Source of the DNA: the human T2T-CHM13v2.0 reference genome, Homo sapiens
Assembly (NCBI RefSeq): GCF_009914755.1
Contig: NC_060939.1
Reading direction: 5' to 3' (one strand)
Length of the DNA stretch: 64,000 bases
The notes beneath the pieces are model-generated. The model had not been told where the DNA came from. It ran no database searches and saw only the letters and a program-made list of their open reading frames with translations. Made by a program: the position numbers and the translations under genes. Below, piece by piece: positions 5,860 to 27,506 of the stretch. Position 1 is the first letter of the stretch; each line of letters opens with the position of its first letter.

Positions 5860-6530
5860 CAAATCTCTAGTGCAGTAAATTCCAAATAAATTCTGTAGCT
5901 ATTGGCCCCTCAGGTATGTGGTAGGTATCTTCCTATCCCTTAATTGTGGGCTCCACATCCAACATTTTTTCCAAAGAGTACACATCAAAAGAGAGAAAGA
6001 AGTAATTTACCCTACAGAATCTTGAAAAACCTCAGCCATGTGACCAAGGTCAACACCAACTATTATTATAAGTCATGTTGATAGCATGGATCTTTATATG
6101 GTATGATAAAAATGTCACCTTACCTCTTTAGTCTTCCTCCCCAAAAGCATACAACTCCACTCTAACCATGAAAAAGTTATCAGAGAAGCCCACACTGATG
6201 GGCATTCTATAAGATGCTTGACCAGTACTTCTCAAAGTGGTTAATGTCATCCAAAACAAGGAATGTCTGAGAAATGATCACAACCCAGGGAAAACTGAGA
6301 AGAGGCATGATGCCAACATGTGATGTGGTACCTAATGCAGTTTCCTAATGATCTTTTTCCAGGATAGGTTCCTGGGGTAGAAAAAGGTCATTAGGAAAAA
6401 AATATTTATAATCTGAATAAAATATGAACTTTAGTTAATATATTAATATTAGTCTATTAGTTCAACAGGAGGAACTCGTGTCGGGTATATGGAAGCTCTC
6501 TGTAGTATCTATCACATCTTTCATATATTA
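5860..6530 (+). mobile_element. Old L1MC/MD 3'UTR fragment
   Basis: gtcatgttgatagcatgg, gggcattctataagatgcttgaccagtacttctcaaagt, gggtatatggaagctctctgta motifs. Confidence 0.6.
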
Positions 6531-6970: not shown

Positions 6971-9476
6971 CTGAGGTAGGTCTTCAAGATGTGTCTAAGA
7001 AAAAAGGTTGATTCAAGAAGAAAGAATTTCACTGAAAGAAAAAAATGGCAAAGTGGCAAACTGAAGAGCTAGGAAAAATGCTTAGAACCAGAACAGAAAC
7101 TAGAAGAGTTATTAATTGTGGGCTCCAGGTTATATGTGAAACAAAAAATAAAATAAAATAAAATTCATCTGAAGATACTTAATCCCCTTTAAATTATTTT
7201 TTTTCCCTCCACTATGAAATATCACCAGTTGACAGGAGATACAGATATTTAACCAAGTAAAACTCTAAAACGTTGGCTTTCAATCCACTCTTTCATACGA
7301 TGGACACAACCAGGTGTGTTTATTGAACGCTGCAGGATACTCTAGATCTAGCAATGAGCAGAAGCAAGGTTCACATTGGAGGCATTCTGTGCTATGATAA
7401 AACATATTTATCATGAGGGAGAAAAGGAATGTATTGTGGTCAGCCAATTGTGTGGAAAAGAATATATGTAATAGACTTCATAGGATTTTGCAGTGTATAT
7501 GTGTAGTTATTTGAGAAAATTGCCTGGGGCTTGTTTTCATTCACACTTATCTTCACCTCTTCTACCACCATGCTTTCCTCCAAGTAATCAGTAAGCAGAA
7601 ATGAAATAGTTGGAATCAGCAGCATTCCGAGTTAAAGATGTGAGCATTTTATGTGTAAAGGGTCAGTTGTATTAAAAATCTTGAAATCTGTTCTGGGTGA
7701 CTGTGGGCTATTGATCTCCCCATTGTGGAATGCATCCTAGTTGAAGGTTAGCCAGAGATCTTCACAATAGTGTTTCTGCAGGCAAAGCCGCCTTCCTCTG
7801 TTCGCGAGGAAACTGTTTAATTCATAAAGCTTTGATGCTTAAACTGTTTCTGACCTTCTGTGAGCACTTCAAAGGGGAAAATTAGCTGCCTGGAAAAATA
7901 TAATGACCTAAATCCAGCAATTTGGGACACACATGTTTTAGTCTGTTGAACTCATGTTGACTATTTATACTGTGTTTCTTTTTGGAACAGATTGCCTTGC
8001 AGGCCTATAATTGGATAAAGGTGCTAATTTGGAGAGTTTGAAAATGACTAGGTATCGATTTCTCATTTAAGTGCCATTCCTATTAGAATCTTAGCTCAGA
8101 AGCAAGATGTAAGAATCTGTGCTTAAAGTTTCTTTCTCTCTATTTACGCTTTTTTTATTATTTGCATTTCTTAAAGTAAAATTATATTCATGATAAATAT
8201 ATAAAGAAGCAGCAATACATTTTTTCTTTTCGATTATTAACTTGATTTTTTAAAAGAAATTTTGTGTTCACAGAAAAATTGAGCAGAAAGTATAAAGTTT
8301 CCATATGCCCCTTGTCCCTACACATGACAACCCTCTTCATTATTGACATCCCTTACCACAGTGGTACATTTATTACAATTGATGAACTTACATTGACATA
8401 TCACTACCACTCAGAGCCCATAGTATACATTAGGGTTTACTCTGGATGTTGTACGTTCTGTGGGTTTGGACAACCTTATAATGACATATATCCATTGCAA
8501 TATCATACAGAATGATTTTACTGCCCTAAACATCCTCCAGTTTCCGCCTGTTTTCTCCTTTTGATCAATCCATGAGAACTGACAATCGTATTACTGTCCC
8601 TGTAATTTTGCCTTTTCTAGAATGTCATAGAGTAGTTGGAATCATACAGTATTGGATTATTTCACTTAGTGATATACATTTAAGATTCCTTTATATCTTT
8701 TCATGGCTTGATAGCCAATTTCTTTTTAGAGCTCAATCTACTGTCAGATGTACCACAGTTTATCCATTCACCTACTAAAGAACATCTTGTTTCTTCCAAG
8801 TTTTGGCAACTATAGATAAAGCTGTGTGCCGGTTTTTGTGTGAGCATGAGTTTTCAACTCATTTGAGTAAATACCAAAGAGCACGATTGCTGGATCATAA
8901 GGTAAGAGTATGTTTAGTTTGGTTAAAAAAAAATTGTCTTTCAAAGTAGTGATACCATTTTGAATTCTTACCAGAAATAACTGTGTGTTCCTCACCAGCA
9001 TTTGGTACCTTCAGTATTTTGTAATTCTGTGAAGAATGTTGTTGGTATTGTGATAGGATACACTGAATCTGTAGATCACTTTGGGTAGTATGGGTAGTAT
9101 GTACATTTTAACAATACTGTCTCTACCAACCCATGAACATGGGATATCTTTCCATGCACTTGTGTTCTTTTCAATGTCCTTTATCAGTGTTTTATAGTTT
9201 TCAGTGGAGAGATTTTTCACCTTCTTGGTCACATTTATTTTTAGGTATCTTATTTTTTTTATTTTATTATTATTACACTTTAAGTTTTAGGGTACATGTG
9301 CACAATGTGCAGGTTAGTTACATATGTATACATGTGCCATGCTGGTGTGCTGCACCCATTAACTCGTCATTTAGCATTAGGTATATCTCCTAATGCTATC
9401 CCTCCCCCCTCCCCCCACCCCACAACAGTCCCCAGAGTGTGATGTTCCTCTTCCTGTGTCCATGTGTTCTCATTGT

Positions 9477-13302
<3,826 letters not shown>

Positions 13303-13365
13303 TATGATATTAGCTGGTTATTTTGCTCGTTAGTTGATGCAGTTTCTTCCTAGCCTTGATGGTCT

Positions 13366-14382
13366 TTACAACTTGGCATGATTTTGCAGTGGCTGGTACC
13401 GGTTGTTCCTTTCCATGTTTAGTGCTTCCTTCAGGAGCTCTTTTAGGGCAGGCCTGGTGGTGACAAAATCTCTCAGCATTTGCTTGTCTGTAAAGTATTT
13501 TATTTCTCCTTCACTTATGAAGCTTAGTTTGGCTGGATATGAAATTCTGGGTTGAAAATTCTTTTCTTTAAGAATGTTGAATATTGGCCCCCACTCTCTT
13601 CTGGCTTGTAGAGTTTCTGACAAGAGATCCGCTGTTAGTCTGATGGGCTTCCCTTTGTGGGTAACCCGACCTTTCTCTCTGGCTGCCCTTAACATTTTTT
13701 CCTTCATTTCAACTTTGGTGAATCTGACAATTATGTGTCTTGGAGTTGCTCTTCTCGAGGAGTATCTTTGTGGCGTTCTCTGTACTTCCTGAATCTGAAT
13801 GTTGGCCTGCCTTGCTAGATTGGGGAAGTTCTCCTGCATAATATCCTGCAGAGTGTTTTCCAACTTGGTTCCATTCTCCCCATCACTTTCAGGTACACCT
13901 ATCAGACGTAGATTTGTTCTTTTCACATAGTCCCATATTTCTTGGAGACTTTGTTCGTTTCTTTTTATTCTTTTTTCTCTAAACTTCTGTTCTCACTTCA
14001 TTTCATTCATTTCATCTTCCATCACTGATACCGTTTCTTCCAGTTGATGGCATCGTTTCCTGAGGCTTCTGCATTCTTCACGGTGTTCTCGAGCCTTGGC
14101 TTTCAGCTCCATCAGCTCCTTTAAGCACTTCTCTGTATTGGTTATTCTAGTTATACATTCGTCTAAATTTTTTTCAAAGTTTTTAACTTCTTTGCCTTTG
14201 GTTTGAATTTCCTCCTGTAGCTCAGAGTAGTTTGATCATCTGAAGCCTTCTTCTCTCAACTCATCAAAGTCATTCTCTGTCCAGCTTTGTTCCGTTGCTG
14301 GTGAGGAACTACATTCCTGTGGAGGAGGAGAGGCGCTCTGCTTTTTAGAGTTTCCAGTTTTGCTGCTCTGTTTTTTCCCCAT
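13366..14382 (-). pseudogene. L1 ORF1p, 1017-nt span with premature stop
   Basis: ATG at 14382, TAA at 13366; in-frame TGA at 13995-13993 (codon 130, MK*EQKF where consensus has Arg, a CGA>TGA CpG decay); C-terminal 186 aa match ORF1p. Confidence 0.95.
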
Positions 14383-15413
14383 CTTTGTGGTTTTATCTAC
14401 TTTTGGTCTTTGATGATGGTGATGTACAGATGGGTTTTTGGTGTGGATGTCCTGTTTGTTAGTTTTCCTTCTAACAGACAGGACCCTCAGCTGCAGGTCT
14501 GTTGGCGTTTGCTAGAGGTTCACTCCAGACCCTGTTTGCCTGGGTACCAGCAGTGGTGTCTGCAGTACAGTGGATTTTTCTGAACCGCGAATGTTGCTGT
14601 CTGATCATTCCTCTGGAAGTTTTGTCTCAGAGGAGTACCGGGCCGTGTGAGGTGTCAGTGTGCCCCTGCTGGGGGGTGCCTCCCAGTTAGGCTGCTCGGG
14701 GTTCAGGGGTCAGGGACCCACTTGAGGAGGCAGTCTGCCGGTTCTCAGATCTCCAGCTGCGTGCTGGGAGAACCACTGCTCTCTTCAAAGCTGTCAGACA
14801 GGGACATTTAAGTCTGCAGAGGTTACTGCTGTCTTTTTGTTTGTCTGTGCCCTGCCCCCAGAGGTGGAGCCTACAGAGGCAGGCAGGCCTCCTTGAGCTG
14901 TGGTGGGCTCCACCCAGTTCGAGCTTCCAGGCTGCTTTGTTTACCTAAGCAAGCCTGGGCAATGGTGGGCGCCCCTCCCCCAGCCTCGCTGCCGCCTTGC
15001 AGTTTGATCTCAGACTGCTGTGCTAGCAATTAGCAAGACTCCGTGGGCGTAGGACCCTCCGAGCCAGGTGCGGGTTATAATCTACTGGTGCGCCGTGTTT
15101 TAAGCCCGTGGAAAAGCGCAGTATTAGGGTGGGAGTGACCCGATTTTCCAGGTGCCGTCGGTCACCCCTTTCTTTGACTAGGAAAGGGAACTCCCTGACC
15201 CCTTGCGCTTCCCGAGTGAGGCAATGTCTCGCCCTGCTTTGGCTCGCGCATGGTGCGCTGCACCCACTGTCCTGCGCCCTCTGTCTGGCACTCCCTAGTG
15301 AGATGAACGCGGTACCTCAGATGGAAATGCAGAAATCACCTGTCTTCTGCGTCACTCATGCTGGGAGCTGTAGACCGGAGCTGTTCCTATTCGTCCATCT
15401 TGGCTGTAATCCC
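14383..15413 (-). promoter_or_regulatory. L1 5'UTR with sense (minus) and antisense (plus) promoter regions
   Basis: CpG-rich L1PA 5'UTR sequence; retains the ~129-bp segment at 14506-14633; activity not shown. Confidence 0.8.
14962..15178 (+). pseudogene. L1 ORF0 (antisense), disrupted
   Basis: ATGGTGGGCGCCCCTCCCCCAGCC start at 14962; CAG>TAG stop at 15031-15033 (codon 24). Confidence 0.8.
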
Positions 15414-18400: not shown

Positions 18401-20247
18401 TTTAAAAATTTTCTTTTTATCTTTGGCTTTTGACAGCTTAATAATAATGTGCCTTGGTGATGATCTCTTTTTTTGGTTGAATATGTTTGGGGACTTCTGC
18501 AGTTCGTGTGTTTGGATGTCCATTTCACTTTCAAGCCTTGGGAAGTTTTCAGGAATTATTTTATTAAATCAGCTGTTTTTATCTTCGTGTCTAAGTCTTT
18601 TAAAATTTCCCTAATGCAAAAGGTTGATTGTTTAATGGTGTCCTATAAGTCTTGCAGTTGTCTTTGCTCTTTTTCATTCTTTTTTTCTTTTTTTTTCTCT
18701 TCAACTGGGTAATTTATTTTGTTGTTGGTATCTTAGTTTATTCAATTCAATAAACATTTCTTGAATATATAATGTACTTTGATAAGTCCTGCAGTTACCA
18801 AGATGAAGGATGGGATAATTTCAAAAGACCTATCTTCAAGTTCAGAGATTCTTTCTTCTGTTTAATCTAGTCTGCTGTTGAAGCTCATTATTGCATTTTT
18901 ATTTCAATCATTAAATTTTGCATCTCCAAGTGTTTTGTTTCCTTCTAATAATATCTCTTTGTTAAATTTATCATTCAGATCATGAATTTTTTTCCTGATG
19001 TTCTTGAATTGTGCATTTGTATTTTCTTGTATCTCACTGAGTTATCTTAAGATCATTATTCTGAATTCCTTTTCAGGCAATTTGTAAACTTCCTTTTCTT
19101 TGTGGAGAATCATTGTGTTCCTTTGATAGTGTCATAATCTCTTGCTTTTTCATAGTTGTCCTGTCCCTGCAATGATTTATGTGCATCTCATGAAAAAAAT
19201 TACTTCTTCCAAACTTTACCAAGTAGCTTTTGTACAGAAGGACTTTAACCTGCAGTTGGGTCTTCATGCGCCAATGGGGAAAAGTATGGTGGCTCTCGTT
19301 CCAAGTAGATACAGGAGAATAGCTTCTATGCAGCATCTTCAGCTGTGATCAATGTCAGTGATGACTGTGAATGCCTCTGTGGCCTAGGCTGTATGAGTTT
19401 GTGGCAGCAGCAGCATAGGTTTTTAGGGTCCTAGATGGCAAAGATGTTTGAGGTCTTCTTATTCTCAATTTCCCTCCCTATAAGGAGACTTAGCCAAAGG
19501 CATCCCTCCGGTGTTGGGTCTGACACTGCCATAAGCAGCTGTAGTAGCTCTGGGTTTTAGAGTACAGGTGCTAGAGTGGCGTGGAGCCAGGGACCAAGGC
19601 TCAGAATCTTGTGAACCAATTGTGGCACCTGAGTCTTGGAGTTCAGGTTAACTCTGTGAGTAACAAGTGGATGTAGATTGCCCACAGAACTTGGGTATCT
19701 GTGACTCTGAGGCACCCCTTAGCAGCTTGGGCCTAGAAACCCAGGTAGTAGCTGTGACTGTAATCATGAGAGGCAGGGGAACAAGTTATAGCATTGGCCA
19801 AGCTTTGGAGAAAAAGGAATGTTCTGGAGGTTTGGGCCCAGGGGGCAGAGTACAGTTGTAATTTGGCAACCAGAGCCAATAGGGCACAGTGGCAACTCAG
19901 TCTCTGGCAATGAGGCATCATGTCATGGTGACTCTGAACCCTGGGACGACAGAATACATCAATATCCCAGACTCTGTGAGGCCAGGTGGAGTGGCAACAC
20001 TGAATGGGGGAATATAGCTGTCTCTTGTGACCTAGAGGGTAAGGAGCAGCACAGTGATTACTCCAGTCTCTATAAAGGAGGTATCACAGCAGTTCAGACA
20101 CTAGGGAGTTAGTCCAGTTCTAGAAAAACAGAGCACTAAGGTTGTTTGGTCTGTATGGCAGAGTGTCTCAACTCAGCCGATGCTGTTTCCCTAGGTTACA
20201 GATTATTACATCTGACCGTCCCTAGGATGCAGAGCTGCTTGGCTTAG

Positions 20248-20532
20248 CCAAGGCATTAATTACCCAGGAGGTGATGTGCTGATTCAGCTCAAACCCAGGG
20301 GATGTGACTGCTCTGGGTGGCCAAGCCAGTTTTTCCCTAAGATGCAAGGCACTGCTTCCGCTAAAGCGCAGGGGAGCATGGCTGCTCTAGATGGCCAAGG
20401 CACCATTTCTCAGGAGGCAGGGTACAGATTCAACTCACACACTGGAGGAGCATGACTGCTCTGGGTGGCCAAGGTACTGTTTTTCCAGGAGGCAGGTTGC
20501 CACTTCAGCTCAGCCACAAGGGGCAGGGTGTG
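20248..20532. repeat. Degenerate ~74-bp tandem monomers in the old L1M 5'UTR
   Basis: CCAAGG/CCAAGC...CAGGAGG-like units start at 20248, 20321, 20395, 20469. Confidence 0.7.
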
Positions 20533-20697
20533 ACCAGGTGTTTAATTCTGTTCTCTGTGGCCGTCCTGGGTTTCTGTGCTTTGCAGGATTTCTGCTACTC
20601 CTTTAATGTACTCAAGTGCTCTCCTTTGGTTACTTTAATCAAAATGTAGTTGTTTATTGTTTTGACTGTCTTTCTGAGGTAAGGAGACCAGAACTAA
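20533..20697 (+). repeat. Direct copy of 21182-21346
   Basis: About 11 mismatches in ~164 bp by manual alignment. Confidence 0.95.
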
Positions 20698-22377
20698 AAA
20701 CCCTAGAAGAAAACCTAGGCAATACCATTGCCTAGGTAGATGGAGTGGCTCTGCCAGGGCACCATTTTCCCAGGAGGCATTGCATGCTTCAGCCCTGGTC
20801 CCGAGGGGCAGGTCACAGCTGTAACTGGGAGAGGTACATGTGGTGGCTCCATTGCAACTTGGCCCCATGGAAGAGGATGTAGCAGCAGTTTGGCTCATTG
20901 ATGGTGGTCCACTAGGCAGGGGTGGTTGAGCACTGGAATGGAAGGGTACTGCAGCCACTCATCCCTGGAGCAGGACACTCTCTAGCAGTAGTTCCAGTTC
21001 CAAGAAGGCATAGCACAGTAGCTGTGTTGACCACAGTGGGTGAGGTACAGTGTCAGCTCCTGTTGTGGGGGAAGCACAGCTGTGTAGACTCAACTGGCTT
21101 ACTGCCTGTGAGGACATTTTCTCACATGGGGAAGTCCCTCCTGGTTCCAGCTGCTCCTGGATGGGAAATGGGGTGGTGGAGGCCAGGTGTTTACTTCTGT
21201 TCTCTGTGGCCATCCTGGGTTTCTGTGCTTTACAGGGTTCCTGCTACTCCTTTGAGGTACTCAAGTGTTCTCCTTTGGTTACTTTAATCAAAATGTAGTT
21301 GTTTATTGTTTTGACTGTCTTTCTGGGGTGAGAAGACCAGAACTAAGCGCTTCTAGTTGGCTGTCTTGCTAACATTACTCTCGAATTGCAGTATTTTGAA
21401 TTTGGGCCATTCTAATAGGTGAGTAGTGATGTCTCATTTTTATTTAAATTTTCAATTGCATAATGGCCTGTGGTATTGAACATCTTTTCATATCCTTACT
21501 TGCCATCTGTGTATCTTGGGTGAGATGTATGTTCATGTATTTATTTTATTTTTTACCACTTTTTTATTATTATACTTTAAGTTCTGGGATACATGTATTT
21601 CTCCTAATGCTATCCCTCCCTCAGCCTCCCCACCCCCGACAGGCCCCAGTGTGTGATGTTCCCCTCCCTGTGTCCATGTGTTCTCATTGTTCAGCTCCCA
21701 CTTATGAGTGAGAACATGCAGTGTTTGGTTTTCTGTTCCTGTGTTAGTTTGCTGAGAATGATGGTTTCCAGCTTCATCCATGTCCCTGCAAAGGACATGA
21801 ACTCATTTTTTTATGCCTGCATACTATTCCATGGTGTATATGTGCCACATTTTCTTTATCCAGTCTATCATTGATGGGCATTTGGGTTGGTTCCAAATCT
21901 TTGCTATTGTGAACAGTGCTGCAAAAAACATACGTGTGCATGTGTCTTTATAGTAGAATGATTTATAATCTTTTGGGTATATACCCAGTAATGGGATGAC
22001 TGGGTCAAATGGTATTTCTGGTTCTAAATCCTTGAGGAATCGCCACACTGTCTTCCACAATGGTGAACTAATTTATACTCCCACCAACAGTATAAAAGCA
22101 TTCCTATTTCTCCACATCCTCTCCAGTACCTATTATTTCCTGACTTCTTTTTAATGATTGCCATTCTAACTGGCATGAGATGGTATCTCATTGTGGTTTT
22201 GGTTTGCATTTCTCTAATGACCAGTGATGATGAGCTTTTTTTTTTGTCATATGTCTGTTGGCCGCATAAATGTCTTCTTTTGAGAAGTGTCTGTTCATAT
22301 CCTTCGCCCACTTTTTGATGGGGTTGTTTGTTTTTTTTTCTTGTCAATTTGTTAAAGTTCCTTGTAGATTCTGGATA

Positions 22378-22764
22378 ACAGAAATCCAGGATGGCCACAG
22401 AGAACAGAAGTAAACACCTGGCCTCCACCACCCCATTTCCCATCCAGGAGCAGCTAGAACCAGGAGGGACTTCCCCATGCAGGAAAATGTCCTCACAGGC
22501 AGTAAGCCCAGTTGAGTCCACACAGCTGTGCTTCCCCCAGAATAGGAGCTGACACTGTACCTCACCCACTGTGGTCAAACAGCTACTGTATTATGCCTTC
22601 TTGGAACTGGAACTACTGCTAGAGGGTGTCCTGCTCCAGGGATGAGTGGCTGCAGTACCCTTCCATTCCAGTGCTCAAGCACCCCTGCCTGGTGGACCAC
22701 CATCAATGAGCCAAACTGCTGCTACATCCTCTTCCATGGGGCCAAGTTGCAATGGAGCCATCAC
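22378..22764 (-). repeat. Inverted copy of 20840-21226
   Basis: About 14 substitutions + 2 single-base indels in 387 bp; ORF 22024-22578(-) repeats peptides seen in + ORFs 20922-21287 and 21050-21298. Confidence 0.97.
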
Positions 22765-23014
22765 CTTTTTTTTTTTTTTTAATTTAGATGTTCAATTGTC
22801 CCACCATTTGTTGAAATGACTATTGCATTGCTTTTGCTCCTTGGTCAATTATCATTTCCATGTCCATGGGATCAATGATCTGTTGAATATATTGATGTGG
22901 ATGTACTTCTGGGCTTTCTGTTTTGTTCCATTGATCTATTTGTCTGTTGTTTCACCAACACTTCACCATCTCGATTAATAAAGATTTATAGTAAGCCTTG
23001 AATTCAGGTAGCAT
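22762..23014 (+). repeat. Direct copy of 23940-24189
   Basis: About 15-17 substitutions, including a shared T-run and aatttagatgttca...aggtag. Confidence 0.97.
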
Positions 23015-23028
23015 TTCAACAGGGAGTC

Positions 23029-23107
23029 TACCTCTCCCAGTTACAGCTGTGCCCTACCCCTCGGGACCTGGGCTGAAGCAAGCAATGCCTCCTGGGAAGA
23101 TGGTACC
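23029..23107 (-). repeat. Inverted copy of 20758-20836
   Basis: 6 mismatches in 79 bp. Confidence 0.95.
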
Positions 23108-25689
23108 AAAACAGATATATAGACCAATAGAACAGAACAGAGGCCTCAGAAATAACACCACACATCTACAACCATCTGATCTTTGACAAACCTGACAAAA
23201 ACAAGCAATGGGGAAAGGATTTCCTATTTAATAAATGGTGTTAGGAAAACTGGCTAGCCATATGCAGAAAACTGAAACTGGGCCCCTTCTTACACCTTAT
23301 ACAAAAATTCACTCAAGTTGTATTAAAGACTAAAATGTAAGACCTAAAACTACAAAAACCCTAGAAGAAAATCTAGGCAATACCATTCAGGACATAGGCA
23401 TGGGCAAAGACTTCATGACTAAAACACCAAAAGCAATGGTAGCAATAGCCAAAATTGACAAAAGGGATCTAATTAAACTGAAGAGCTTCTGCACAGCAAA
23501 AGAAACTATCATCAGAGTGAACAGACAACCTACAGAATGGGAGAAAATTTTTTGTTCAGGTCTTTTCCCATTTTGAAATTGGGTTGTTTGCTTTCTTACT
23601 GTTGAATTTTAAGAGTTCTTTGTATATTTTGGACAACTGTCCTTTATTATATACATATTTTGTAAGTATTTTATCCCCGTCTTTGCCTTTTCTTCTCATT
23701 CTCTTCACTTATTTCACAGAGCAGAAGTTTTTAATTTTTATTAAGTTCAGCCTATCAGTTTTCTTTCTTGTGTCATGGCTTTAATGTTGTACCTAAAACG
23801 TCATTCCCCTACCCAACATCACCTTGATTTTCTCCTATACTTTCTTATAGGAATTCTACAGTTTTGCATTTTACTTTAGTTTTATGATCCATTATGAGCT
23901 AATTATTGTGAAGGGTGTGGAGGTGTGGGTTTGTCCCCACACCTTTTTTTTTTTTAATTTAGATGTTCATTTGTCCCACCATTTGTTGAAATGACTGTTG
24001 CATTGCTTTTGTTCCTTGGTCAATTATCATTTCCATGTCCATGGAATCAATGATCATTTGAATATATTGATGTGGATGTACTTCTGGGCTTTCTGTTTTG
24101 TTCCATTGATCTATTTGTCTGTTGTTTCACCAATACTTCACTGTCTTAATTAATAAAGATTTATACTAAGTCTTGAAGTGAGGTAGTGTCAGTAATCCAA
24201 CTTTATTCTCCTTCACTTTTGAGTTGGCTATACTGTTTTATTTATTTATTTATTTGTTGCCTTTCTCTATGAACTTTGAGATCACTTTGTGGATATTCAG
24301 AAAATTACTTGAAGAGATTTTGGTGGCAATTAGGTTGAATCTATAGACCTAGTTTGGAAAAAATGGTATCTTGACTATTTGCTCTATTGATAAATGTGGA
24401 CTCTCTCTCCATTTATTTAGTCTTTGACAGCTTTCATCAGAGTTTTGTATTATTTCTCATATTGTATATATATCTTGTTAGATTTATACCTAAGTATTTA
24501 ATTTTGAGGATGGTAATGTAAATAATATTGTGTTTTAATTTCAAGTTCCATTTGTTTATTGCTGATTTATAAAAAAGCAGTTGACTTTTGGAGTATGAAC
24601 ATTGTATTCTGCAACCTTGCTATAATTGCCTATTAGTTCCAGGTGTTTTTTAATAGATCCTTCTAGACTATCTACATAGAAAATAATGTTATCTGCAAAC
24701 AGTTTATTTCTTTCTAATGCTTTTTCTTCATCTATTTATATAATCATGTGCTTCTTTTTTCTTTTTTAGCTTTTTGATATAATTAATTATAATAATCGAT
24801 TCTCTAGTGATGAACCAGCCTTGCATACTTGGGAAAAATCGTATCTGGTTGTGGGTATAATTCCTTTTATACTTTGTTGGATTTAATTTGCTTACATTTT
24901 ACTGAGGATTTTTGAATCTATGTTTATGAGAGATATTAGCCTGTTATTTTCTTTTCTTAAAATATCTTTGGCTGGTTTTGATATTATGTAATGTTGAATT
25001 CATAGAGTGATTTAGGAAGTATTCCATCTTCTTCTGTCTTCTTGAAGTAATTATAGAGAATTGGTACAATTTTCTTCTGAAGTATATAATGGAATTTACC
25101 AGTGAACTTATCTGAATACAATGCTTTCTGTTTGGGAAGTTTATTAATGTTTAATAAATTTCTTTAATAGATATTGGTTTATTCAGATTGTTTCTTTTTG
25201 TATGAATTGGTCTATTTCATCTAGTTTTTCAAATTTGTGAAATTCTAAATTTGTGCAATTAGATTTGTTTATAGTATTCCTTTATTATCCTTTCCATGTC
25301 CATTGGATCTGTAGTAATGACTTATCTTTTATTTCTGATATTAGTAATTTGTGTTTTCTCTCTCTTACCCTTCAACCCCACAGTTATCATGGCTAAAAGT
25401 TTATAACTTTTATTGATCTACTCAAATAAACAGCTTTTGGTTTTATTGATTTTCTGTTGTTTCATTAATTTCTGGTTTAATTTTTATTATTTCCTTTCTG
25501 CTGCTTACTTTGGACTTAATTACTCTTCTTTTTCTAATTTCCTAAGGTAGAAACTTGGAGTATTGATCTAAGATCTTTCTCATTTTCTGGTAAAAGTATT
25601 CAATGCTATAAATTTCTAAGCACTGCTTTCACTGTATCCCACAAATGTTGATTAGTTGCATTTTCATTTTCATTTAGTTCAAAATATTT

Positions 25690-27074: not shown

Positions 27075-27506
<432 letters not shown>

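What the first reader, a model, noticed from the sequence alone, without database searches (positions are those of the whole stretch)
21530..23565. Twin-primed L1PA7 whose inversion junction holds ~720 bp copied from both flanks
Seen, left to right: TSD; L1 3' part (21543-22377, -); inverted copy of 21226-20840; direct copy of 23940-24189 (CAC microhomology at 22762-22764); ~14-nt filler; inverted copy of 20836-20758; TGGT(A/G)CC microhomology into the inverted L1 part (23101-23552, +); TSD. The third piece resumes only 3 nt from where the first stopped, so synthesis appears to have left the upstream template, crossed the insertion site, copied ~250 bp and returned. The two L1 parts are nearly adjacent in L1 coordinates (~30-nt gap). 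Established: that geometry is the twin-priming signature, and such junctions normally carry only microhomology or a few extra bases. Inference: the two cDNA ends were bridged by serial DNA-templated switching (MMBIR/FoSTeS- or Pol-theta-like). Copy divergence of 4-8% argues against an assembly artefact.
Basis: partly seen in the sequence, partly recalled or inferred. Interest (0 to 1): 0.85.

Follow-up and report, generated by a model that had tools for sequence, protein, structure and literature searches.

The report
Inverted L1 with flank-copied junction DNA
An old L1 jumping-gene insertion on human chromosome 15 carries, at the point where its two halves meet, about 720 bases copied from the DNA on both sides of the insertion site; it is an unusually elaborate fixed example of a repair outcome already reported for new L1 insertions in tumours and cultured cells.

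Summary
A 5'-inverted (twin-primed) L1 sits at 21530-23565. Its two parts lie 28 nt apart in L1 coordinates. It is bounded by a 13-bp target-site duplication that paralogous empty sites carry once. Between the parts lie an inverted copy of 20840-21226 (96%), a direct copy of 23944-24186 (94%), a 17-nt filler and an inverted copy of 20758-20836 (92%). The donors belong to an older antisense L1. Their other genomic relatives are 66-87% identical, so these are true local duplications.

New here: a second patch at 20534-20729, made of a direct copy of 21183-21346 plus a 35-45-nt L1 piece, inserted into the host repeat.

Copy divergence (pooled 5.3%) roughly matches twice the L1's own branch (3.3-3.9%). 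The e/e' pair (20840-21226 and its copy) is lower. Left-flank copies are inverted and the right-flank copy is direct. That is what one growing strand copying the two resected 3' tails would give.

Best reading (about 0.7): serial DNA-templated switching during L1 integration. Templated insertions at L1 integration sites are already in print, so this is a new member of a known kind. Primate orthologs, which could not be examined here, would decide the timing.

The parts
20534..20697 (+). Patch segment a: a direct copy of 21183-21346, inserted into the host repeat.
   Evidence: 93.3% identity (11 mismatches in 164). Absent at this place from 4 independent family members.
20695..20729 (+). Patch segment b: a sense-strand L1 ORF2 piece of 35-45 nt. 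It is joined to a through the imperfect homology AGACC.AACTA.
   Evidence: Matches 23351-23387 and ruler L065 6313-6347 at 94%. It carries the family state at both B-private positions. It is also 34 of 35 identical to another L1 at 10345-10379.
20758..20836 (+). Donor d in the host repeat.
   Evidence: Contiguous with e in family members (query 435-792).
20840..21226 (+). Donor e in the host repeat.
21183..21346 (+). Donor f. It overlaps e by 44 nt.
   Evidence: Collinear in family members (query 815-1088).
21530..21542 (.). Left target-site duplication, TGTTCATGTATTT.
21543..22377 (-). L1 3' part (C). The A-rich tail is at 21543-21595 and the L1 body at 21596-22377. This is the first cDNA, primed from the left end.
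   Evidence: 90-92% identity to the best L1 copies. Matches ruler 7310-6541. Tail sequence.
22378..22764 (+). e': an inverted copy of 20840-21226. It is joined to the L1 with 0 nt of microhomology.
22765..23011 (+). h': a direct copy of 23944-24186. The CAC microhomology is at 22762-22764. The T run is 15 nt here against 12 nt in the donor.
23012..23028 (+). 17-nt filler. Its first 10 nt are the reverse complement of 22809-22818 and 23984-23993, which suggests a snap-back copy.
23029..23107 (+). d': an inverted copy of 20758-20836. It overlaps the L1 through TGGT(A/G)CC.
23101..23552 (+). Inverted L1 part (B), with no tail. This is the second cDNA, primed from the right end.
   Evidence: 92.5% identity to ruler 6060-6511. 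Ends 28 nt before C starts in L1 coordinates.
23553..23565 (.). Right target-site duplication, TGTTCAGGTCTTT.
23944..24186 (+). Donor h, inside the antisense host L1.
   Evidence: Lies within the collinear alignment 23543-24702 to ruler 6629-5487.

Best explanation
A mid-aged primate L1 RNA integrated by twin priming into an older L1 that lies in the same orientation.

Shown: the L1 geometry, the target-site duplication, the intact target, which segments are donors and which are copies, and their orientations.

Inferred:
1. The first cDNA, primed from the left end, stalled 28 nt short of the site where the second cDNA had been primed.
2. Both broken ends were resected 5' to 3' for at least about 0.6-0.8 kb.
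3. The 3' end of the first cDNA folded back onto its own strand 316 nt upstream of the nick and copied it (21226 to 20840), giving the inverted copy e'.
4. The tip then left, annealed by CAC to the exposed strand of the right end and copied 23944-24186, giving the direct copy h'.
5. It added a short snap-back and filler.
6. It returned to the left template 3 nt beyond where it had left and copied 20836-20758, giving d'. The e'/e duplex probably acted as a tether.
7. It finally paired through TGGT..CC with the 3' end of the second cDNA. Fill-in and ligation finished the insertion.

The patch at 20534-20729 lies 28 nt beyond the leftmost copied base. It is most simply a scar of the same event, formed where fill-in synthesis met the resected 5' end and switched templates twice more: to an L1 strand, then to 21346-21183.

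The polymerase is unknown. It could be ORF2p acting on DNA, Pol theta, or a replicative polymerase.
For: - Geometry: the two parts are 28 nt apart; the tail and the 13-bp TSD are present and single-copy paralogs show no target loss; the family encodes an RT (RVT_1, E = 1.6e-19 in relative L024) and has more than 11,000 candidate copies.
- Donors are ancestral. d-e-f are collinear in family members, and h lies in a collinear 1.2-kb alignment to an L1 ruler. The copies lie only between the two L1 halves.
- Polarity: both left-flank copies are inverted and the right-flank copy is direct. That matches one growing strand using the two strands that survive resection.
- Placement: the insert fills exactly the gap between the two cDNA 3' ends.
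- Age: pooled divergence is 46 of 872 = 5.3% (95% CI 3.9-7.0). The four pairs are homogeneous (chi-square p = 0.26), and three of them (32 of 486 = 6.6%) match twice the L1 branch, 5.8-7.8%. Mismatches lie on both members of each pair: 15 source-derived, 21 copy-derived, 10 ambiguous.
- Piece b carries the family state at 2 of 2 positions where B has private changes.
- Precedent: cDNA self-annealing after long resection, and genomic DNA templated into L1 insertions (passages of PMC11702581; passages of bioRxiv 10.1101/2024.08.27.596794).
Against: - e/e' is less diverged (14 of 386 = 3.6%) than twice the L1 branch predicts (P = 0.036 to 0.0006 across the branch range). Either gene conversion between the inverted arms or a later origin must be invoked.
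- Against the upper branch estimates, the pooled divergence is also low (P = 0.014 at a branch of 3.6%, P = 0.002 at 3.9%).
- The first switch (cDNA to e') has 0 nt of microhomology, and the return to d has 0-1 nt. That is awkward for annealing-primed synthesis.
- The opposite strand order gives the same sequence: growth from the second cDNA with a blunt final join.
- b is not specific to this L1; it is 34 of 35 identical to another L1 in the window. Linking the a-b patch to the same event therefore rests on proximity, shared donor territory and similar divergence only.
- The filler 10-mer is weak evidence: 149 of 20000 random fillers do as well within h/h', but 488 of 5000 do so anywhere in 20-26 kb.
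- No ortholog, polymorphism or read data were available.
Confidence: 0.7

Rival explanations
1. The event was coupled to integration, but with a different strand order or different templates. [quoted passage not shown] It copied duplex or sister-chromatid DNA in an MMBIR/FoSTeS-like way, and was finally joined blunt to the first cDNA by end-joining.
For: - The only junction without microhomology (C|e', 0 nt) would then be the last one, an end-joining step. The 7-nt TGGT(A/G)CC would be the priming step.
- End-joining is proposed to resolve 5'-inverted insertions (passages of PMC11702581).
Against: - The templates would be the strands that resection removes, so invasion of a duplex or sister chromatid on 3-7 nt of homology is needed.
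- Resumption 3 nt from the point of departure is less easily explained without a tether.
- The sequence alone cannot separate the two orders.
Confidence: 0.15
2. The events came later and were independent. An ordinary twin-primed L1 with a plain junction was hit afterwards by one or more double-strand breaks. These were repaired by capture of nearby DNA (repair-mediated duplications), one of them happening to fall on the inversion junction.
For: - Proximal repair-mediated duplications exist in primate genomes. Pace et al. report 824 probable cases with donors under 5 kb away, mean length 162 bp and maximum 619 bp; 20 of their acceptor sequences were chimeras of two different sequences (passages of PMC2671141).
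- The a-b patch looks just like one.
- e/e' and the pooled divergence sit on the low side of twice the L1 branch.
Against: - A later break would have to fall within a few tens of bases of the inversion junction, about 1-2% of the locus.
- Two or three such rare events would have to fall within 3 kb and use overlapping donor territory.
- h/h' is not younger than e/e' (6.2% against 3.6%).
- b lacks both private changes of B.
Confidence: 0.1
3. There was no rearrangement at all. The look-alike segments are independent copies of dispersed repeats, or a misassembly.
For: All the segments lie in an ancient dispersed repeat with more than 1000 genomic candidates.
Against: - Non-local relatives are 66-87% identical, against 92-96% for the local pairs.
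- The boundaries are sharp and carry microhomology.
- Mismatches are spread over both members of each pair.
- The assembly is telomere-to-telomere.
Confidence: 0.02

Closest known systems
Twin priming (5'-inverted L1 insertion; Ostertag and Kazazian 2001, seen only as a reference entry and as described in PMC2912911 and PMC11702581)
   Same: A tail-bearing 3' part and an untailed inverted part. A flanking TSD of typical length. The inner end of the 3' part lies next to the TSD-side end of the inverted part in L1 coordinates.
   Different: - In cell clones the gap or overlap is reported as 1-10 bp in 32 of 32 cases (passage); here it is 28 nt.
- The junction normally shows microhomology only; here it holds 723 bp of non-L1 DNA.
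Templated insertions during L1 integration (bioRxiv 10.1101/2024.08.27.596794, 22 tumour cases among 3,598 insertions; PMC11702581, 3 insertions with sequence templated from near the integration site; SDSA-like model credited there to earlier cell-culture work)
   Same: Non-L1 genomic DNA from close to the target is copied into the insertion, the donor is kept, and the whole is bounded by TPRT hallmarks.
   Different: - Reported cases are said to involve templates typically under 250 bp (passage). Here there are three tracts of 387, 243 and 79 bp from both flanks, alternating, plus a snap-back and probably a second patch 0.8-1.0 kb away.
- This one is germline-fixed and tens of millions of years old.
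- I could not see the supplementary figures (bioRxiv supplements are closed), so I cannot say whether any reported case sits at an inversion junction or uses both flanks.
L1-associated fold-back by self-annealing of the cDNA 3' end after long 5' resection (PMC11702581, Fig. 6 text)
   Same: The first step proposed here is the same: the cDNA tip pairs with its own strand upstream of the nick, which gives an inverted copy of the flank.
   Different: In the published cases the hairpin is ligated and replicated into a chromosomal fold-back. Here synthesis went on, switched templates and rejoined the other end, so the outcome is a local insertion.
Repair-mediated duplications by capture of proximal DNA (Pace et al. 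2009, PMC2671141, passages)
   Same: The donor is under 5 kb away, the tracts are of about 150 bp scale, and there are chimeric acceptors, microhomology, filler and small deletions. The 20534-20729 patch fits in every respect.
   Different: That class was defined so as to exclude retrotransposition hallmarks. Here the main acceptor is inside an L1 insertion, and one piece of the second patch is L1 sequence.
Variant twin priming with 'filler' DNA in primate L1 loci (PMC2837659, passages)
   Same: Fixed primate L1 insertions of twin-priming type that carry extra non-L1 sequence.
   Different: In that paper the extra sequence was called filler, with no origin given in the passages I saw. Here every tract except 7 nt is traced to a local donor.

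Membership tests
Twin-primed (5'-inverted) L1 insertion | Both parts are L1 sequence (an RT-encoding LINE family). | tested here: met
   11,063 genomic candidates, the best at 90-92% identity. Parts B and C align at 92.5% and 91.5% to ruler L065. The upstream ORF of relative L024 hits RVT_1 at E = 1.6e-19. Two ORFs from the window's own parts gave no Pfam hit.
Twin-primed (5'-inverted) L1 insertion | The 3' part ends in an A-rich tail next to one TSD, and the inverted part has no tail and abuts the other TSD. | tested here: met
Twin-primed (5'-inverted) L1 insertion | The TSD-side end of the inverted part and the inner end of the 3' part are adjacent in L1 coordinates. | tested here: met
   A 28-nt gap in the 20 relatives that carry both parts collinear. 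This is larger than the 1-10 bp reported for 32 cell-clone cases.
Twin-primed (5'-inverted) L1 insertion | A target-site duplication of about 7-20 bp flanks the whole, and the target is otherwise intact. | tested here: met
   13 bp, 11 of 13 identical. Two paralogs carry it once. Ruler coordinates overlap across the site.
Twin-primed (5'-inverted) L1 insertion | An L1 endonuclease-type nick site (TTTT/A-like). | tested here: inconclusive
   The inferred nick is ...GGTCTTT/TCCC: T-rich before the nick, but no A after it. The consensus is taken from passages.
L1 integration-coupled templated insertion | Non-L1 genomic DNA lies inside the TSD-bounded insertion, copied from a retained donor near the target. 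| tested here: met
   Donors lie 316-784 nt left and 391-633 nt right of the priming ends, at 92-96% identity.
L1 integration-coupled templated insertion | The copying took place during integration, not later. | tested here: inconclusive
   The clock is compatible (5.3% against an expected 5.8-7.8%; three of four pairs fit), but e/e' is low. Placement is exactly between the two cDNA ends. No orthologs were available.
Repair-mediated duplication (Pace et al. 2009), for the 20534-20729 patch | The acceptor lies inside a repeat, the donor is under 5 kb away, there is microhomology, filler or deletion at the breakpoints, and there is no poly(A). | tested here: met
   The patch is absent from 4 independent family members and replaces about 16 nt. 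The donor lies 650 nt away, and the a|b joint has imperfect homology.
MMBIR / FoSTeS | Replication-fork-based serial template switching primed by microhomology. | not testable with these tools
   Serial switching is seen (at least 4 switches, with 0, 3, 0-1 and 4-7 nt of microhomology). Whether a replication fork was involved cannot be read from the sequence.
Pol theta-mediated end joining with templated insertion | Short templated or snap-back inserts, with 2-6 nt of microhomology. | tested here: inconclusive
   A 10-nt inverted copy of the nascent h' in the filler fits a snap-back. Tracts of 79-387 nt are much longer than I recall as typical for this pathway; that typical length comes from memory, not from a call.

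The most novel reading that the evidence does not exclude
A single germline L1 integration left a readable fossil of its repair intermediate.

- Both broken ends were resected for at least 0.6-0.8 kb.
- One growing strand ping-ponged between the two exposed 3' tails while staying tethered to the first template, resuming 3 nt from where it left.
- The far limits of resection are marked by scars: the a-b patch at -0.8 to -1.0 kb, and possibly the locus-specific 265-nt deletion at +1.14 kb.

If this is general, old 5'-inverted L1s could be mined genome-wide to measure resection lengths and polymerase switching at L1 integration sites in the germline.
Probability: 0.3. Interest if true: 0.6.

Novelty: new member of a known kind. 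Interest (0 to 1): 0.4.

Why it matters
The locus shows that the complex outcomes of L1 integration now being found in tumours and engineered cells also became fixed in the primate germline. These outcomes include fold-back of the cDNA onto its own resected strand and copying of nearby genomic DNA. Here they reach at least four template switches that use both flanks.

Nearly every base is traceable to a donor. The locus therefore gives concrete numbers for the intermediate: template positions 316-784 nt from the left priming end and 391-633 nt from the right one, and microhomologies of 0-7 nt. It also gives a simple polarity rule, left copies inverted and right copies direct, that a genome-wide screen of 5'-inverted L1s could test.

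It has no evident functional consequence. It lies in introns of two lncRNA genes, according to the hub's annotation.

Tried and rejected
- Independent repeat copies: rejected. Non-local relatives are 66-87% identical, against 92-96% for the local pairs.
- Homeology between the young L1 and the host L1 as the guide for template choice. Donor h spans the host position equivalent to the inner end of the inverted part (ruler about 5990-6240 against 6060). However, host and young L1 are only about 60% identical there, and the strands that would have to pair have the same sense. I treat this as coincidence.
- An excess of changes on the copies, as a sign of error-prone synthesis: 21 copy-derived against 15 source-derived, not significant.
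- CpG decay as the reason for the uneven divergence: the pairs hold 0-2 CpG-context sites each, so no.
- Assigning b to this particular L1: not possible, since it is equally close to another L1 in the window.
- Pfam on the window's own L1 ORF fragments: 0 families for 2 fragments.
- Ostertag and Kazazian 2001 and Gilbert et al. 2005 are not held, so statements about them rest on how other papers cite them.
- No primate genomes, repeat library, read data or other human assemblies were on hand.
- No genome-wide screen of inverted L1s was run.
- In what I read from them (search listings with abstract starts, and passages of five papers) I saw no description of flank DNA from both sides at an inversion junction. 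Supplements of the two preprints could not be seen.
Full report
**1. What is there**

On the + strand, left to right:

| Coordinates | Element |
|---|---|
| 21530-21542 | TSD |
| 21543-21595 | T-rich tail |
| 21596-22377 | Antisense L1 body (part C) |
| 22378-22764 | e', inverted copy of 20840-21226: 14 mismatches and 2 one-nt gaps in 388 columns |
| 22765-23011 | h', direct copy of 23944-24186: 15 of 243 mismatched; T run 15 against 12 |
| 23012-23028 | 17-nt filler |
| 23029-23107 | d', inverted copy of 20758-20836: 6 of 79 mismatched |
| 23101-23552 | Sense L1 (part B) |
| 23553-23565 | TSD |

**2. The L1 and its geometry**

- Part C finds 11,063 candidates in the assembly. The 40 scored reach 90-92% identity.
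- In 20 of the 29 fetched relatives, B and C are both complete and collinear. In these, B ends 28 nt before C begins. The other 9 were truncated or interrupted within B and were left out.
- An upstream ORF of relative L024 is a reverse transcriptase (RVT_1, E = 1.6e-19).
- The TSD is TGTTCATGTATTT on the left and TGTTCAGGTCTTT on the right. Two paralogs of the host element carry that stretch once and align to both flanks across it. So the duplication is real and no target DNA was lost.
- This is the twin-priming layout as described in the passages read. The gap of 28 nt is larger than the 1-10 bp reported for cell clones.
- The subfamily name L1PA7 could not be tested.

**3. What the flanks are**

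- Both flanks belong to one older L1 lying antisense. 21394-21554 and 23543-25453 align collinearly to an L1 ruler at 59-63% identity.
- The region left of about 21390 is the same element's 3' region. Many family members match it at 66-83%.
- In those members d, e and f are contiguous and in the same order. They are therefore the donors, and the pieces inside the young L1 are the copies.
- Non-local relatives of the junction pieces are 69-87% identical, so independent repeat insertions cannot explain 92-96% identity.

**4. A second patch**

- 20534-20697 is a direct copy of 21183-21346 (11 of 164 mismatched).
- It runs, through the imperfect homology AGACC.AACTA, into a 35-45-nt sense L1 piece ending at 20729.
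- Four independent family members (five rows, two of them from one locus) pass from about 20530 to about 20736 with only about 16-25 nt between. The patch is therefore an insertion that replaced about 16 nt.
- Its right edge is 28 nt from the leftmost base copied into the junction (20758).
- Its donor overlaps donor e by 44 nt.
- The L1 piece has the family state at both positions where part B has private changes (19 of 20 relatives at each). It was therefore not copied from B in its present form.
- It is, however, equally close (34 of 35) to another L1 at 10345-10379, so its source is not proven.

**5. Junction details**

| Junction | Microhomology |
|---|---|
| C \| e' | 0 nt |
| e' \| h' | CAC |
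| h' \| filler | none evident |
| filler \| d' | 0-1 nt |
| d' \| B | TGGT, then one mismatch, then CC |

- The first 10 nt of the filler are the reverse complement of a 10-mer inside h' and h.
- 149 of 20000 random fillers do as well within h/h', but 488 of 5000 do so anywhere in 20-26 kb. This is suggestive only.
- d' resumes at 20836, after e' stopped at 20840.

**6. Age**

- Three-point branch lengths give this L1 copy 3.3-3.5% overall. Part B, which was not used to choose the relatives, gives 3.8-3.9%. Part C gives 2.9-3.2%. Private differences are 45 of 1212.
- Copies made at integration should then differ by about 5.8-7.8%.
- Observed: e 3.6%, h 6.2%, a/f 6.7%, d 7.6%. Pooled: 46 of 872 = 5.3% (CI 3.9-7.0).
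- The four pairs are not significantly heterogeneous (p = 0.26). Three of them fit well (32 of 486).
- e/e' alone is low (P = 0.036 to 0.0006), and the pooled value is low against the upper branch estimates.
- The L1 branch also includes differences that were already present in its source, which narrows the gap. Gene conversion between the inverted arms could lower e/e'.
- Polarised with outgroups, changes lie on both sides: 15 on donors, 21 on copies, 10 undecided. That is what old, independently drifting duplicates should show.
- The clock therefore allows a single event at integration but does not prove one.

**7. Mechanism**

- The orientations obey a simple rule: copies of the left flank are inverted and the copy of the right flank is direct.
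- The first step, the cDNA tip pairing with its own resected strand, has been proposed for L1-associated fold-backs in cell clones (passages).
- Resumption 3 nt from the departure point with almost no microhomology suggests that the e'/e duplex stayed paired while the tip made its excursion.
- The upstream patch can be read as the place where fill-in of the resected strand ended.
- The reverse order, with growth from the second cDNA and a blunt last join, yields the same sequence. It needs less natural templates, and I give it about 0.15.
- Later independent repair duplications (the class described in PMC2671141) need a break right at the inversion junction and several rare events within 3 kb. 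I give that about 0.1.

**8. Known or new**

- Genomic DNA templated into L1 insertions is reported for 22 tumour insertions. The templates are typically under 250 bp and close to the target, and an SDSA-like model is cited (passage).
- It is also reported for 3 insertions in cell clones (passage).
- Extra 'filler' in variant twin-priming loci of primates is mentioned in PMC2837659.
- I found no description of alternating copies from both flanks at an inversion junction in what I read from searches (listings with abstract starts, and passages of five papers).
- I therefore file this as a new, unusually elaborate and fully traceable germline member of a known kind.

**9. Verdict**

- Interest is moderate (0.4).
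- Orthologous primate sequence would settle the timing.

Noticed in passing
window 24702-24715: The host L1 lacks about 265 nt here relative to the L1 ruler. Paralogs that match both sides carry about 190-275 extra nt at this point, and a shared stretch of about 13 nt occurs at both edges. The deletion is therefore specific to this locus. It lies 516 nt beyond donor h. Whether it belongs to the same event is unknown.
   Followed up: partly
window 27092-27162: An isolated 71-nt young-L1-like piece lies antisense here. It is 91.5% identical to 22247-22317 and 88.9% identical to the ruler, has no tail, and sits between two older repeat segments. Its origin is unexplained. It may be unrelated to the finding.
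   Followed up: partly
window 20247-20512: The 3' region of the host element contains degenerate tandem units: 20279-20437 matches 20352-20512 at 72%, and 20247-20336 matches 20394-20486 at 74%. This homeology may have eased the template switch at the left edge of the a-b patch.
   Followed up: no
window 9381-10631: Another young L1 lies on the minus strand, 88-90% identical to the two parts studied here. It is part of the long masked block 9177-15395 and was not examined further.
   Followed up: no
window 22766-22780 vs 23947-23958: The T run at the start of the direct copy has 15 T, against 12 T in the donor. This could be slippage at or after copying.
   Followed up: no
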